From contig OZ246888.1 in NCBI GenBank assembly GCA_965231775.1, positions 785,757 to 849,756 on the forward strand: a stretch of 64,000 nucleotides of DNA, in the 5' to 3' direction. Numbering within the stretch: the first letter of the stretch is position 1; every line of letters starts with the position of its first letter. The position numbers and the translations under genes were made by a program. Positions 35,977 through 38,806 of the stretch are shown piece by piece. The DNA comes from Candidatus Binatia bacterium (GTDB lineage: Bacteria; Desulfobacterota; Binatia; Bin18). The notes under the pieces are model-generated. The model had not been told where the DNA came from. It did not search any database and saw nothing but the letters and a program-made list of their open reading frames with translations.

Positions 35977-36954
35977 ATGGCGAAAGAGCAGATATCGCGT
36001 CGGACCTTTCTCAAGAATACCAGCGCAGTGGTGACCGCAGCCGCATTAGCCGGCAATCTTACTCAGCCTCGACCCGCCGCGGCACAATCTACCGGTCAGC
36101 TCCAGTTCGGAGTGCAAACCCCGCCGCAGCATGTGCCCTACAGTCAAGTGCAAGACGTATGGCTGGAAGCCGACGAACTTGGCTATGATAGCGCTTTTGG
36201 TTTTGATCACTTTCTGCCGATCCTTTCCGATCCAACCGGCCCGTGTCTGGAAGGCTGGACCTTGCTCGCGGCGCTTGCCGCTCAGACGAAGCGGTTGAAA
36301 ACCGGCCTGCTCGTCACTGGCAACACGTATCGTAATCCGGCATTGCTCGCCAAAATGGCGGCAACGGTCGATCACGTGAGTGGCGGACGCCTGATTCTGG
36401 GGATGGGCGCGGGCTGGTTTAAGCTGGAACACGACGCGTTTGGCATCCCGTTTTACACGCCGGGCGGGCGGGCACGACGGCTGGTCGAATCTGTCGAACT
36501 CATCAAGATGCTCTTCACTCAGGAAAAGACAACCTATGCGGGTAAATACTATCAGGTCAAAGATGCCCCGTTTGAGCCCAAGCCGCTCCAGAAACCCTAT
36601 CCACCGATTTTGATTGGTGGGATGGGACCCAAGGTCGTCCAGCCGCTGGTCGCTCGGCATGCCGACATCTGGCATTTCTTTGTGCGCCAAGGAGGAGCCG
36701 AAGCTGCCAAAAAGGTCGCTGTGAAATTTGACGCCATCTGCAAAGAGGTCGGACGCGACCCCGCCGAGATACAGAAGTCTACATCGCTCAGTCCTGAGCA
36801 GCTCAAACAGTCGCCCGATACTGTCAGAGCTGCGGTCCAGGCGTATGCGGATGCTGGCGTGCAGTATTTTATTGTGTCGATGTATCCCGACTACGATATG
36901 GTGTCCTTCCGTCGCTTTGCCAAAGAAGTCATGCCGGCATTCCGTCAGGCGTAG
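35977..36954 (+). CDS. LLM-class oxidoreductase (Rv1855c-like) with twin-arginine signal peptide
   Basis: MAKEQISRRTFLK + hydrophobic stretch + AAA; then FDHFLP, EGWTLLAALA, VTGNTYRNPALLAKMAATVDHVSGGRL; GGAGGA RBS. Confidence 0.88.
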   Translation: MAKEQISRRTFLKNTSAVVTAAALAGNLTQPRPAAAQSTGQLQFGVQTPPQHVPYSQVQDVWLEADELGYDSAFGFDHFLPILSDPTGPCLEGWTLLAALAAQTKRLKTGLLVTGNTYRNPALLAKMAATVDHVSGGRLILGMGAGWFKLEHDAFGIPFYTPGGRARRLVESVELIKMLFTQEKTTYAGKYYQVKDAPFEPKPLQKPYPPILIGGMGPKVVQPLVARHADIWHFFVRQGGAEAAKKVAVKFDAICKEVGRDPAEIQKSTSLSPEQLKQSPDTVRAAVQAYADAGVQYFIVSMYPDYDMVSFRRFAKEVMPAFRQA

Positions 36955-36960
36955 GAGCGC

Positions 36961-38139
36961 ATGCAAACGAAAATACCCGCGGTTTTCATGCGCGGCGGTA
37001 CCAGCCGGGCGGTCTGCTTCCGGGAAGAGGTGTTGGCTGCCTATCCGCCGCCCGCGCGTGACCGTATCATCCTGGCTGCCCTGGGCAGCCCCGATGTTTA
37101 CGGTCGTCAAATAGACGGCCTCGGCGGTGGGATTTCTTCGCTCAGCAAAGTCGTGATTGTGGGCCGCAGTACGCAGGCGGACAGCGACGTCACCTTCACC
37201 TTTGGTCAGGTTGACGTGCGGACGCCGCACATCGACTGGAGCGGCACCTGCGGCAATATGGCGGCGGCGGTCGGCCCGTTTGCCATTGATGAGGGTATTA
37301 TTCCCGCGGTAGAGCCGGTGACCACAGTGCGGGTGGTTGTGACGAATACGGGTAAACGCTATATCGCCCGTGTCCCGGTCTGCGCCGGTCAGGCCGCGGT
37401 TGAAGGCGAGTACAGTATTGACGGGGTACCCGCTCCGGGGGCGAGCATCAGCCTGGAATACCCGGACCCGGGTGGCTCGCTCGGCGGAGGGTTGTTGCCC
37501 ACCGGTCTGCCCCGCCAGCGGTGTGATCTCGCGGACTCACGTATTGTGACGATCTCGGTTGTGGACGCCGCGATTCCGACGGTGTTCGTTCGTGCCCTTG
37601 AGCTGGGCGCTGATGCCACGCAACTCGCGCCCGCGCTCGACGCAGCGCATGCCTTACAGCAGAGGCTGGAAGAGATACGCTGCAAAGCGGCTATTCTGCT
37701 TGGCCTCACCCCGAGCCTTGAGCAGGCTCACGAGAAGTTTCAACACACGCCCAAAGTCGTGCTGGTCGCCCCACCGGCAGCGTATCCCGCAAGTAGTGGC
37801 AAGAAGGTGGACGCGGAAAGCATCGACCTGCTGGCCCGCGCGATTTCTATGCGCAACACCCACCGGACCTTTCCGGGGACGGTCGCGATGTGTACCGCCC
37901 TGGCCGCTCAGGTTGAAGGCACTGTCGTGCATGAAGTCGTCCGGCGGACGGCCACGCACGACATCCGAATCGGGCATCCCGCCGGGGTCATGGCGGTCGG
38001 AGCGAGGGTCTCACGCCGGGGCGGGGAGTGGTACGCCGAGCGGGTGACAACGAAGCGGACGGCGCGGCGTATTATGGAGGGGGCGATCTTGGTGCCACAA
38101 AAATATCTGGACGGCACAGCCTGGTTTGAGGGAAAGTAG
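36961..38139 (+). CDS. PrpF-family isomerase (2-methylaconitate isomerase / oxalomesaconate tautomerase-like)
   Basis: FMRGGTSR, LGSPD..GRQIDGLGGG.SS.SKV, GTCGN, IGHPAG, RTARRIMEG. Confidence 0.9.
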   Translation: MQTKIPAVFMRGGTSRAVCFREEVLAAYPPPARDRIILAALGSPDVYGRQIDGLGGGISSLSKVVIVGRSTQADSDVTFTFGQVDVRTPHIDWSGTCGNMAAAVGPFAIDEGIIPAVEPVTTVRVVVTNTGKRYIARVPVCAGQAAVEGEYSIDGVPAPGASISLEYPDPGGSLGGGLLPTGLPRQRCDLADSRIVTISVVDAAIPTVFVRALELGADATQLAPALDAAHALQQRLEEIRCKAAILLGLTPSLEQAHEKFQHTPKVVLVAPPAAYPASSGKKVDAESIDLLARAISMRNTHRTFPGTVAMCTALAAQVEGTVVHEVVRRTATHDIRIGHPAGVMAVGARVSRRGGEWYAERVTTKRTARRIMEGAILVPQKYLDGTAWFEGK

Positions 38140-38149
38140 AGGATGAAGT

Positions 38150-38175
38150 GTAGGGGCGGCGTCCAACGCTGCCCC
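38150..38175. repeat. GTAG-type REP-like palindrome
   Basis: GTAG-GGGCGGCG-tccaa-CGCTGCCCC between convergent genes. Confidence 0.5.
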
Positions 38176-38201
38176 CAGTCGGCTTTGCCGAGACCAGCCG
38201 G

Positions 38202-38663
38202 TCAACCCGAGCAGTCCTGCATTAACTCCAGGGTCGTGCCGTCCGGATCGCGAAAATAGACGGCCTTGACCTTCCCGTAGCCTTCCCCCTCCAGATCGAA
38301 CATCTGTGGCCGCGAATAGAACTCAACGCCCTTGGCGCTCAGGTCCTGGTAGGTCTTTTCAATATCCTTGACCCAAAACGCGACCTCTGTGATGCCGGGG
38401 TTGGCCAGTCCTGGATACGGGTTGCCCGTGTCGCCGGGCTCAATGAAGTGCAAGAGTTCGATTGGCGGACCCTTGGGGTCATCTTCGTAACGCAGGTAGA
38501 CGGCGCGCAGTTTTGTATCCGGCACCTGGGTGACCGTGCTGGCCTCTTCCCCCTCAATGGTCACATCGCCAATGACCCTGAGCCCCAGCGTGTCCCGATA
38601 AAACTCGACGGCCCGGTCCATATCCCGAACGGTGATACCAACATGTGCAACAGCTCCGAGCAT
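38202..38663 (-). CDS. VOC family protein
   Basis: AHVGITVRDMDRAVEFY...YFRDPDGTTLELMQ. Confidence 0.9.
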   Translation of the reverse strand: MLGAVAHVGITVRDMDRAVEFYRDTLGLRVIGDVTIEGEEASTVTQVPDTKLRAVYLRYEDDPKGPPIELLHFIEPGDTGNPYPGLANPGITEVAFWVKDIEKTYQDLSAKGVEFYSRPQMFDLEGEGYGKVKAVYFRDPDGTTLELMQDCSG

Positions 38664-38806
38664 ATTCGTTCCCTCCTTATCCTATTCCCCGGTGAAGGGG
38701 GTGGCGCACAGCGCCGAGATGGATTTCTTTGGTCCTAGCACAGTCCTCTTGCACAAGGGGAGAGGCGGGCGACGATTCCTCTGTCGGGCCTCCCAGGGAG
38801 GGGGTA

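What the first reader, a model, noticed from the sequence alone, without database searches (positions are those of the whole stretch)
35977..36954. Twin-arginine signal peptide on a luciferase-like (probably F420-dependent) oxidoreductase
Seen: ISRRTFLK consensus, hydrophobic TSAVVTAAALAG and an AAA cleavage site precede an intact Rv1855c-like LLM domain; the gene is between a cytoplasmic LLM and prpF. Established: Tat exports folded cofactor-loaded proteins; LLM enzymes are almost all cytoplasmic because they need reduced flavin/F420 (the mycobacterial fHMAD is a known exception). Inference: periplasmic deazaflavin/flavin redox chemistry in a diderm.
Basis: partly seen in the sequence, partly recalled or inferred. 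Interest (0 to 1): 0.55.

Follow-up and report, generated by a model that had tools for sequence, protein, structure and literature searches.

The report
Tat-exported F420-type luciferase-like oxidoreductase
A soil bacterium with an outer membrane (class Binatia) encodes an enzyme of a family that normally works inside the cell with the rare cofactor F420, but it carries a textbook, conserved signal for export in the folded state, so F420 chemistry outside the cytoplasm, known so far only from tuberculosis bacteria, may be widespread in soil bacteria.

Summary
The gene at 35977-36954 (+) has a GGAGGA ribosome-binding site and encodes a 325-aa precursor. Residues 1-36 form a canonical twin-arginine (Tat) signal: SRRTFLK, a mildly hydrophobic core, Arg32 in the c-region, and AAA before Gln37. 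NCBI's curated Tat model scores above its cut-off.

The mature part is a complete TIM-barrel LLM of family TIGR03560 (Rv1855c type), also above cut-off. The signal marks a whole clade. All 115 full-length sequences among the 120 closest homologues (60-95% identity; Binatia, Methylomirabilota) keep the RR. The clade is monophyletic within otherwise cytoplasmic relatives.

The genome has cofC/D/E/G/H, tatA/B/C and BamA. F420 dependence of the subfamily is supported in two ways. All 10 tested genomes not labelled Binatia that carry a homologue have cofE. In a Blastocatellia genome a 48%-identical homologue lies inside the F420 biosynthesis cluster. The fold alone cannot separate F420 from FMN.

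It is not an orthologue of mycobacterial FGD2/fHMAD, the only published Tat-exported F420 protein. It is an independent variant that lacks a lipobox and sits in a diderm. Substrate and redox partner are unknown.

The same genome also has a second Tat-LLM, a Sec-signal LLM and a Sec-signal Ddn-family deazaflavin oxidoreductase. This hints at a periplasmic F420 system. First readers of this scan flagged similar genes in other genomes.

The parts
35965..35970 (+). Shine-Dalgarno sequence GGAGGA, 6 nt before the ATG
   Evidence: Read directly from the sequence.
35977..36084 (+). Predicted cleavable Tat signal peptide, residues 1-36
   Evidence: TIGR01409 matches residues 6-36 at 28.5 bits against a cut-off of 16.7. 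The region has low pLDDT and lies outside the barrel in the AF2 model. It is conserved in 115 of 120 homologues.
35995..36015 (+). Twin-arginine consensus S-R-R-T-F-L-K (residues 7-13)
   Evidence: R8, R9 and F11 are invariant in alignment A1. SRRxFLK is present in 57 of 89 parsed homologues.
36019..36054 (+). h-region TSAVVTAAALAG (residues 15-26), only mildly hydrophobic
   Evidence: The best 12-residue Kyte-Doolittle mean is 1.70. The clade mean is 1.69, and the Sec-type paralogue scores 2.85.
36055..36084 (+). c-region NLTQPRPAAA with basic R32 (a Sec-avoidance feature) and an A-x-A signal peptidase I site before Q37
   Evidence: A basic residue occurs in the c-region of 89 of 89 parsed homologues, and AxA in 74 of 89.
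36085..36954 (+). Mature 289-aa (beta/alpha)8 luciferase-like oxidoreductase of family TIGR03560, plus stop codon
   Evidence: TIGR03560 scores 242.8 bits against a cut-off of 231.4 over residues 44-269. PF00296 has E = 2e-49. The AF2 model has pLDDT 82.7 and pTM 0.83. Its nearest folds are LLMs.
35046..35933 (+). Upstream signal-less LLM (LLM1, family TIGR03619), 43 nt before the Tat-LLM; likely same operon
   Evidence: TIGR03619 scores 262.9 bits against a cut-off of 166.9. It is adjacent to the Tat-LLM in 18 related genomes, but each gene also occurs without the other.
36961..38139 (+). Downstream PrpF-family isomerase-like gene, 6 nt after the Tat-LLM stop; no signal peptide
   Evidence: PF04303 has E = 1e-111. 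It scores below the prpF and GalD equivalog cut-offs. The LLM1 / Tat-LLM / PrpF trio recurs in homologues down to 63% identity.

Best explanation
The gene encodes a precursor that folds in the cytoplasm and binds coenzyme F420 non-covalently there. Its SRRTFLK signal is recognised by TatBC, and the folded protein is moved across the inner membrane. Signal peptidase I then cuts after Ala36 and releases a soluble 289-residue TIM-barrel oxidoreductase into the periplasm. There it carries out hydride transfer between F420/F420H2 and a small-molecule substrate that is still unknown.

It belongs to a distinct, monophyletic clade of TIGR03560 LLMs that always carry a Tat signal and occur in soil diderms (Binatia, Methylomirabilota). 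The clade arose independently of mycobacterial FGD2/fHMAD.

Shown here: the ORF, RBS and signal anatomy; conservation of the signal; family membership; and the presence of the F420 pathway, Tat machinery and outer-membrane machinery.

Inferred: export itself, F420 as the cargo, the cleavage site, the direction of the reaction, and the substrate.
For: Signal:
- The curated Tat model scores above cut-off.
- RR and F are invariant, and RR is kept in 115 of 120 homologues.
- The c-region basic residue occurs in 89 of 89 homologues, AxA in 74 of 89, and h-region hydrophobicity is low, which is typical of Tat and not of Sec.
- The motif is very rare in the genome.

Machinery:
- tatC at 232.8 bits, with an adjacent tatA/B and a second tatA.
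- BamA at 616.6 bits.

Family and cofactor:
- TIGR03560 scores above cut-off. The four best-scoring families are all F420-type (141-243 bits), while the best FMN-type family reaches 102 bits.
- cofG-cofH-cofD-cofE form a cluster and cofC is present elsewhere.
- cofE is found in 191 of 201 Binatia genomes, including all 33 that carry the orthologue.
- cofE is found in only 10 of 251 genomes of the wider phylum sample, and close homologues occur only in cofE-positive genomes there.
- All 10 tested genomes not labelled Binatia that carry a homologue have cofE.
- In a Blastocatellia genome a 48%-identical TIGR03560 homologue lies between an Fno-like gene (npdG model, below cut-off)-cofD-cofC-cofE and cofG.
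- The catalytic-core residues (D77, H78, R119, D132, R138, G142, G144, E151, E171 and others) are kept in the exported and cytoplasmic groups alike.

Precedent: Rv0132c/FGD2 is exported by Tat with F420 bound (PMC3478262) and binds F420 with nanomolar affinity (PMC13434993).
Against: - There is no experimental evidence for export or cofactor in this protein or in any member of TIGR03560.
- The predicted fold is as close to FMN-dependent MsuD/SsuD/SfnG as to F420-dependent FGD/Adf/Mer, at 20-24% identity. Structure therefore does not settle the cofactor.
- Pfam's Tat model is below threshold.
- F420 biosynthesis is nearly universal in Binatia, so the profile within the class carries no information.
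- No periplasmic system for recycling F420H2 is known.
- Relatives of the same family with Sec-type signals exist. Pre-loading with cofactor is therefore not obligatory for export of this fold.
- Two genomes of the same genus lack the gene, so it is dispensable.
Confidence: 0.7

Rival explanations
1. Cofactor ferry in a periplasmic F420 redox system. The Tat-LLM still acts as an enzyme, but it also carries F420 into the periplasm. The outer membrane retains the large anionic cofactor there. The cofactor then serves F420 enzymes exported by Sec, which cannot be pre-loaded. For example, a substrate would reduce F420 on the LLM, and F420H2 would be re-oxidised by an exported Ddn-family oxidoreductase, possibly onto quinone.
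For: - The same genome encodes a Sec-signal TIGR03560 LLM at 268.3 bits, above cut-off, and a Sec-signal TIGR00026 deazaflavin-dependent (Ddn-family) oxidoreductase at 55.4 bits against a cut-off of 46.35. It also encodes a Sec-signal PNPOx-like protein.
- Orthologues of the exported Ddn-like protein that also carry signal peptides occur in 2 of 4 genomes not labelled Binatia that have the Tat-LLM, including a Methylomirabilota genome.
- Within the class, the Tat-LLM and the Ddn-like protein co-occur in 26 genomes; 7 have only the Tat-LLM and 16 only the Ddn-like protein.
- A similar role was proposed for FGD2 in the mycobacterial envelope (PMC13434993).
Against: - The co-occurrence is largely phylogenetic. 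Within family f4 the observed overlap is 3 genomes against 2.8 expected.
- 16 genomes have the Ddn-like protein without this Tat-LLM.
- The genes are not linked, and their neighbourhoods are uninformative.
- Split-barrel proteins can also bind FMN, FAD or haem.
- Release of tightly bound F420 is unproven.
Confidence: 0.22
2. An exported LLM that uses FMN or no cofactor. The Tat route would then reflect fast folding or FMN loading, not F420.
For: The nearest solved structures by sequence and by fold include FMN enzymes: 3rao, MsuD, SsuD and SfnG. Sec-signal relatives suggest the fold can be exported without a cofactor. No TIGR03560 member has been characterised biochemically; the literature search for Rv1855c found no functional study.
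Against: - FMN-family models score far below their cut-offs and well below the F420-type models.
- Every genome tested that has a homologue also has cofE, which is rare elsewhere.
- A homologue is embedded in an F420 biosynthesis cluster.
- FMN-dependent LLM monooxygenases need a separate NAD(P)H:flavin reductase, and the periplasm has no NAD(P)H (established knowledge of two-component flavin monooxygenases).
Confidence: 0.1
3. Hitchhiker carrier. The Tat-LLM forms a heterodimer with the adjacent signal-less LLM1, as LuxA does with LuxB, and carries it through Tat.
For: LLM1 lies 43 nt upstream. It is adjacent to the Tat-LLM in 18 related genomes and in homologues down to 63% identity. LLMs are commonly dimers, and Tat hitchhiking is well established.
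Against: - LLM1 orthologues occur without the Tat-LLM in at least 6 genomes, including G277, a complete genome of the same genus.
- The Tat-LLM occurs without LLM1 in 12 Binatia genomes and in Methylomirabilota.
- In 3 genomes the two genes are on different contigs.
- LLM1 belongs to a different LLM subfamily.
Confidence: 0.06
4. The protein is not exported. The twin-arginine N-terminus would be a non-functional look-alike, or an uncleaved anchor that leaves the enzyme on the cytoplasmic side.
For: There are no localisation data. Pfam's Tat model is below threshold.
Against: All three regions of a Tat signal and the AxA site are conserved across sequences 55-95% identical, while the rest of the signal sequence drifts. 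The curated TIGR01409 model scores above cut-off. Some clade members carry a lipobox in place of AxA, which only makes sense for exported proteins.
Confidence: 0.04

Closest known systems
Mycobacterium tuberculosis Rv0132c (FGD2 / fHMAD; NCBIfam TIGR04465 'ArgArg_F420')
   Same: Both are luciferase-like TIM-barrel proteins with an N-terminal twin-arginine signal of about 36-40 residues placed directly before the barrel, in organisms that make F420. For Rv0132c, Tat export with bound F420 and nanomolar F420 affinity have been shown experimentally (PMC3478262, PMC13434993).
   Different: It is not an orthologue. TIGR04465 scores 77.7 bits against a cut-off of 470, and the match to PDB 9fp4 has an E-value of only 3e-16. 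It belongs to a different LLM subfamily (TIGR03560). It has no lipobox Cys and instead has AxA, so it should be soluble in the periplasm and not lipid-anchored. The host is a diderm (Binatia), not a mycolate actinobacterium. The literature describes FGD2 as restricted to pathogenic mycobacteria.
Cytoplasmic TIGR03560 (Rv1855c-family) F420-dependent LLM oxidoreductases
   Same: The protein scores above the family cut-off and shares the conserved core residues. It also shares the co-occurrence with F420 biosynthesis. A cytoplasmic paralogue with 51% identity is present in the same genome.
   Different: It has a 36-residue Tat signal. The Tat-bearing sequences form their own clade (SH-aLRT 98) and collapse into essentially one cluster at 50% identity (572 bits), followed by a gap to 322 bits. 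Positions A166 and P223 are shared with the Sec-signal group but are rare in cytoplasmic members. No family member has a known substrate.
Classical cofactor-loaded Tat substrates of Gram-negative bacteria (for example molybdoenzymes, [NiFe] hydrogenase small subunits, NADP-containing GFOR)
   Same: The signal architecture and logic are the same: the cofactor is inserted in the cytoplasm and the folded protein is then exported.
   Different: The presumed cargo cofactor is the deazaflavin F420. The 2026 Tat review lists F420 only once, for Rv0132c (PMC13673990).

Membership tests
NCBIfam TIGR03560 (Rv1855c-family F420-dependent LLM oxidoreductase) | HMM score above the curated cut-off over the full model | tested here: met
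   242.8 bits against a cut-off of 231.4; model positions 2-226 of 227 match residues 44-269.
NCBIfam TIGR03560 (Rv1855c-family F420-dependent LLM oxidoreductase) | Species range confined to genomes that make F420 (the family was defined by phylogenetic profile) | tested here: met
   The own genome has cofC/D/E/G/H. All 10 tested genomes not labelled Binatia that carry a homologue have cofE. In the phylum sample cofE is found in 10 of 251 genomes, and close homologues are found only in those. A homologue lies inside an F420 gene cluster.
NCBIfam TIGR03560 (Rv1855c-family F420-dependent LLM oxidoreductase) | Binds and uses F420 | not testable with these tools
   Fold search cannot separate F420-type from FMN-type LLMs. 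Binding or activity assays are needed.
Tat (twin-arginine) export substrates | S/T-R-R-x-F-L-K consensus in the n-region | tested here: met
   S7-R8-R9-T10-F11-L12-K13. TIGR01409 scores 28.5 bits against a cut-off of 16.7. PF10518 is below threshold.
Tat (twin-arginine) export substrates | Weakly hydrophobic h-region, a basic residue in the c-region, and a signal-peptidase site | tested here: met
   Kyte-Doolittle mean of 1.70 against 2.85 for the Sec-type paralogue; R32; A34-A35-A36. The same features hold across the clade.
Tat (twin-arginine) export substrates | TatA/B/C machinery encoded in the genome | tested here: met
   tatC at 232.8 bits, two TatA/B-family genes, one of them next to tatC.
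Tat (twin-arginine) export substrates | Export depends on Tat and on the RR pair | not testable with these tools
   This needs an RR-to-KK mutant or a tat mutant, followed by cell fractionation.
FGD2 / fHMAD (NCBIfam TIGR04465, ArgArg_F420) | HMM score above the equivalog cut-off | tested here: not met
   77.7 bits against a cut-off of 470.
FGD2 / fHMAD (NCBIfam TIGR04465, ArgArg_F420) | Lipobox cysteine after the Tat signal (a lipoprotein) | tested here: not met
   There is no Cys in residues 1-43. A few other clade members do have a lipobox (P0118, L016).
FMN-dependent LLM monooxygenases (SsuD, SfnG, RutA, NtaA families) | HMM score above the family cut-off | tested here: not met
   SfnG 101.9 bits against 383, SsuD 90 against 518, RutA 58.8 against 498, NtaA 44 against 280.

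The most novel reading that the evidence does not exclude
Soil diderms such as Binatia and Methylomirabilota may run an F420-based redox system in the periplasm. Tat-exported LLMs would carry F420 across the inner membrane and the outer membrane would keep it in. Sec-exported F420-family enzymes (a TIGR03560 LLM and a Ddn-type deazaflavin oxidoreductase) would share that pool. The system could link oxidation of periplasmic substrates to quinone or xenobiotic reduction outside the cytoplasm.
Probability: 0.2. Interest if true: 0.78.

Novelty: new variant of a known kind. Interest (0 to 1): 0.52.

Why it matters
F420 is treated as a cytoplasmic cofactor. The only documented case outside the cytoplasm is Rv0132c of M. 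tuberculosis. The current Tat review cites that case alone for F420, and a 2026 structural paper describes FGD2 as restricted to pathogenic mycobacteria (PMC3478262, PMC13673990, PMC13434993).

This gene shows that a different LLM subfamily acquired a Tat signal independently. It kept the signal across a large clade of uncultured soil bacteria that have an outer membrane. If export with F420 is confirmed, deazaflavin chemistry outside the cytoplasm becomes a general feature of soil bacteria and not a mycobacterial oddity.

It would also raise a concrete question that can be tested: how is F420H2 recycled in a compartment without NAD(P)H? The Sec-signal F420-family proteins in the same genome are ready candidates for partners.

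It further adds to the picture of Binatia as organisms rich in F420 and LLMs. The genome has about 165 LLM ORFs, and cofE is found in 191 of 201 genomes of the class. I found no paper in the searched library that links Binatia with F420.

Tried and rejected
1. Telling F420 from FMN by structure. The AF2 model is good, but Foldseek and phmmer place FMN-type and F420-type LLMs at equal distance. This led nowhere.

2. Phylogenetic profile inside the class Binatia. cofE is nearly universal, at 191 of 201 genomes, so the test carries no information. Wider samples and individual genomes were used instead.

3. Hitchhiker pairing with LLM1. Rejected as an obligate arrangement, because each gene occurs without the other.

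4. Function from gene neighbours. The LLM1 / Tat-LLM / PrpF trio is confined to one family-level lineage. Elsewhere the gene stands alone or lies next to unrelated genes such as DAO, DoxX or DinB-like genes. The neighbourhoods of the second Tat-LLM, the Sec-LLM and the Sec-FDOR are uninformative.

5. Co-occurrence of the Tat-LLM with the exported Ddn-like protein. The raw association is strong but is explained by shared ancestry. There is no association within family f4. The result is inconclusive.

6. Promoter and terminator scan of 33000-38700. There is no convincing signal between the genes.

7. Alternative start codons. The ATG at 35953 has no RBS and is not used by homologues. Starts downstream of RR have no RBS and would remove conserved residues.

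8. Literature. No paper on periplasmic or Tat-exported F420 enzymes outside mycobacteria was found in the searched library. This is not proof that none exists.
Full report
**What is in the sequence**

The ORF list gives a 333-codon frame at 35953-36954 (+). GGAGGA lies at 35965-35970, 6 nt upstream, and homologues begin at the same place with M-A/P-K-E-Q.

The product is 325 aa long. Residues 1-36 read MAKEQISRRTFLKNTSAVVTAAALAGNLTQPRPAAA, followed by QSTGQLQFGVQ. This gives a positively charged n-region carrying the full S-R-R-x-F-L-K consensus (residues 7-13). The h-region is short and only mildly hydrophobic (15-26). The c-region contains a basic residue (R32) and an A-x-A site (34-36).

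The LLM barrel begins at residue 43/44 by three measures: the Pfam and NCBIfam envelopes and the AF2 model (strand 43-47). The upstream gene at 35046-35933 is a signal-less LLM of family TIGR03619. The downstream gene at 36961-38139 belongs to the PrpF family but scores below the prpF and GalD equivalog cut-offs. The gaps are 43 nt and 6 nt, and no promoter or terminator signal stands out between the genes, so co-transcription is likely.

**Is the Tat signal real?**

NCBI's curated model TIGR01409 matches residues 6-36 end to end, at 28.5 bits against a cut-off of 16.7 (E = 1e-6). The short Pfam model PF10518 is sub-threshold at 13.6 against 22.7.

In the whole genome, [ST]RRxFL[KRQN] occurs 8 times in 2.6 million residues of six-frame ORFs. 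Only three of these sit at an N-terminus and are followed by an uncharged core, and two of the three are LLMs.

The strongest evidence is conservation.
- Of the 120 best database hits (60-95% identity, nearly all covering 98-100% of the query), 115 keep RR and the other five are N-terminally truncated.
- In an alignment of 30 diverse members, R8, R9 and F11 are invariant while the rest of the signal drifts.
- Among 89 signals that could be parsed, 57 read SRRxFLK, all 89 have a basic residue in the c-region, and 74 have AxA.
- The mean h-region hydropathy is 1.69; this protein scores 1.70. A Sec-type paralogue in the same genome scores 2.85.
- Two members (P0118, L016) carry a lipobox in place of AxA. 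That only makes sense for exported proteins.

**Organism and machinery**

The closest genomes, at 95% protein identity, are complete chromosomes labelled uncultured Candidatus Binatia.

The 5.19-Mb genome that holds the window encodes:
- tatC and an adjacent tatA/B gene, plus a second tatA;
- BamA above cut-off, so the cell has an outer membrane;
- a cofG-cofH-cofD-cofE cluster, plus cofC elsewhere.

**Which cofactor?**

The protein passes the curated cut-off of TIGR03560, the Rv1855c family (242.8 against 231.4). Its four best family matches are all F420-type LLM families. FMN-type families score at most 102 bits and fall far below their own cut-offs.

Sequence and fold comparison with solved structures does not help. 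FMN enzymes (3rao, MsuD, SsuD, SfnG) and F420 enzymes (FGD, Adf, Mer, FGD2) are all about 20-24% identical and equally close in fold.

I therefore tested the family's link to F420 myself.
- Inside Binatia the test carries no information, because cofE is found in 191 of 201 sampled genomes. This tally includes two unpublished genomes, G330 and G426, which matter only for that count.
- In a 251-genome sample of the wider phylum, cofE occurs in only 10 genomes: 8 Binatia and 2 others. Close homologues of the LLM were found only in cofE-positive genomes.
- Ten genomes not labelled Binatia that carry a homologue all have cofE above cut-off. Their record labels are Methylomirabilota, Margulisiibacteriota, Myxococcales, a gammaproteobacterial MAG, Saprospiraceae, Pseudomonadales, Krumholzibacteriaceae and Blastocatellia, plus two bins labelled Enterobacteriaceae whose labels are probably wrong.
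- In the Blastocatellia genome, a cytoplasmic homologue (48% identical; TIGR03560 at 286.5 bits) sits inside the F420 biosynthesis cluster. On one side lie an Fno-like gene (npdG model, 123 bits, below its cut-off of 150), cofD, cofC and cofE; on the other lies cofG.

Together these results make F420 much the more likely cofactor. It still has not been measured.

**Place in the family**

This genome holds about 165 ORFs that match an LLM profile. Only three of them carry an export signal, and all three are TIGR03560 members above cut-off:
- this gene;
- a second Tat form, MRDISRRKFLQ..., at C1:1221658-1222734;
- a Sec-type form, MRTSLCWLVAVSLVLLSVPTQA/EE, at C1:1666383-1667405.

At 50% clustering the Tat clade is essentially one cluster (572 bits), followed by a drop to 322 bits. 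A maximum-likelihood tree of 60 sequences, with the signal columns removed, gives three results. The main Tat clade is monophyletic (SH-aLRT 98). The second Tat lineage is separate (100) and nested among cytoplasmic proteins. The Sec-signal proteins form one or two further groups. Export signals were therefore gained or swapped several times. The backbone of the tree is weak. Two positions, A166 and P223, are shared by the Tat clade and the Sec group but are rare in cytoplasmic members, so a single exported ancestor cannot be excluded. The catalytic-core residues are the same in all groups.

**Distribution and neighbours**

In 201 sampled Binatia genomes, a full-length orthologue (at least 55% identity, aligned from residues 1-7) occurs in 33. 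Twenty of those are among the 24 sampled genomes of the window's own family. Two genomes of the same genus lack the gene.

The LLM1 / Tat-LLM / PrpF trio recurs in homologues down to 63% identity. LLM1 is adjacent to the Tat-LLM in 18 genomes. However, LLM1 occurs without the Tat-LLM in at least 6 genomes, and the Tat-LLM occurs without LLM1 in 12 Binatia genomes and in Methylomirabilota. A LuxAB-like hitchhiker pair is therefore unlikely to be the general mechanism. Other contexts vary: the gene stands alone, lies next to a DAO-type oxidase, or lies next to DoxX. The substrate cannot be read from the neighbours.

**Mechanism proposed**

By analogy with Rv0132c, the precursor folds and binds F420 in the cytoplasm. 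It is exported by TatABC, cleaved after A36, and then acts as a soluble periplasmic F420-dependent oxidoreductase. For Rv0132c, Tat-dependent export with bound F420 and nanomolar affinity have been shown experimentally (PMC3478262, PMC13434993). I put this reading at about 0.7. The weakest links are the identity of the cofactor, the substrate, and how F420/F420H2 would be recycled in a compartment without NAD(P)H.

**A lead on recycling**

An earlier scan note about export signals on deazaflavin-family proteins in another genome prompted me to scan this genome for split-barrel F420 families. Two have Sec-type signals:
- a Ddn-family protein (TIGR00026 at 55.4 bits against a cut-off of 46.35; PF04075 at 54 bits) at C1:5186027-5186512;
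- a PNPOx-like protein at C1:878155-878529.

Orthologues of the first, also with signal peptides, occur in a Methylomirabilota genome and in one other genome that carry the Tat-LLM. Within Binatia the two proteins co-occur in 26 genomes, while 7 have only the Tat-LLM, 16 only the Ddn-like protein, and 152 neither. This follows phylogeny, and it vanishes within family f4. A periplasmic F420 pool fed by Tat-exported LLMs and shared with Sec-exported enzymes is therefore possible but unproven. I put it at about 0.2.

**Comparison with what is known**

The protein works like FGD2/fHMAD but is not a member of that family. TIGR04465 scores 77.7 bits against a cut-off of 470, there is no lipobox, the LLM subfamily is different, and the host is a diderm. 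The 2026 Tat review lists F420 as a Tat cargo only for Rv0132c. A 2026 structural paper describes FGD2 as restricted to pathogenic mycobacteria. Searches for Tat-exported or periplasmic F420 enzymes elsewhere, and for Binatia or Binatota together with F420, found nothing relevant in the library. First readers of this scan flagged Tat-signal LLMs in other genomes, so the feature recurs in the scan's data.

**Verdict**

It is a new, independently evolved variant of a known kind, the Tat-exported F420-type LLM. It is of moderate interest in itself and of higher interest if it marks a periplasmic F420 system.

Noticed in passing
own genome G000:C1:1666383-1667405 (-), outside the window (locus L096:5384-6403): A TIGR03560 LLM (268.3 bits, above cut-off) with a classical Sec-type signal (MRTSLCWLVAVSLVLLSVPTQA/EE). 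Similar Sec-signal relatives occur in Myxococcota MAGs (L021, L026) and in the cluster representatives P0156, P0159 and P0162. A Sec-exported enzyme cannot be pre-loaded with cofactor, so its cofactor supply is unexplained.
   Followed up: partly
own genome G000:C1:1221658-1222734 (+), outside the window (locus L095:5659-6738): A second Tat-signal LLM (MRDISRRKFLQEAG...; TIGR03560 at 259.2 bits) that the tree places in a separate lineage nested among cytoplasmic LLMs. It lies between a methyltransferase gene and a gene of unknown function, with a cupin gene further downstream.
   Followed up: partly
own genome G000:C1:5186027-5186512 (-) (locus L097:5028-5513) and G000:C1:878155-878529 (-): Two split-barrel flavin/deazaflavin-family proteins with Sec-type signal peptides. 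The first is a Ddn-family deazaflavin-dependent oxidoreductase (TIGR00026 at 55.4 bits against a cut-off of 46.35; PF04075). Orthologues with signals occur in a Methylomirabilota genome (L100) and in one other genome (L099).
   Followed up: partly
whole genome G000: About 165 ORFs match an LLM profile at E below 1e-5, which is a very large expansion of the luciferase-like family. cofE is present in 191 of 201 sampled Binatia genomes. No paper linking Binatia or Binatota with F420 use was found in the searched library.
   Followed up: partly
L018:848-8059 (Blastocatellia MAG, contig CAVSKO010000003.1): The F420 genes cofE, cofC, cofD and an Fno-like gene (npdG model, below cut-off) lie on one strand. 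A TIGR03560 LLM and cofG lie on the other, diverging from them. So a cytoplasmic relative of the finding sits inside the F420 biosynthesis cluster. A PvdN/SufS-like aminotransferase gene flanks the cluster.
   Followed up: yes
P0118 and L016:6001-6969 (clade members from other genomes): Some members of the Tat clade have a lipobox (LASC, LTGC) in place of the AxA site. These would be Tat-exported lipoproteins, like mycobacterial FGD2.
   Followed up: no
L013, L014 (genome contigs records labelled 'uncultured Enterobacteriaceae bacterium', binchicken bins): These records carry the Tat-LLM at 61-64% identity and also cofE, in genomes of 6.4-7.1 Mb. The taxonomic label is almost certainly wrong for such content.
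   Followed up: no
neighbourhood of homologue P0103 (no DNA held): In one 62%-identical homologue, a DoxX/DoxD-family membrane protein gene ends 12 nt before the Tat-LLM start. It is a possible membrane or quinone-linked partner, but it was seen only once.
   Followed up: no
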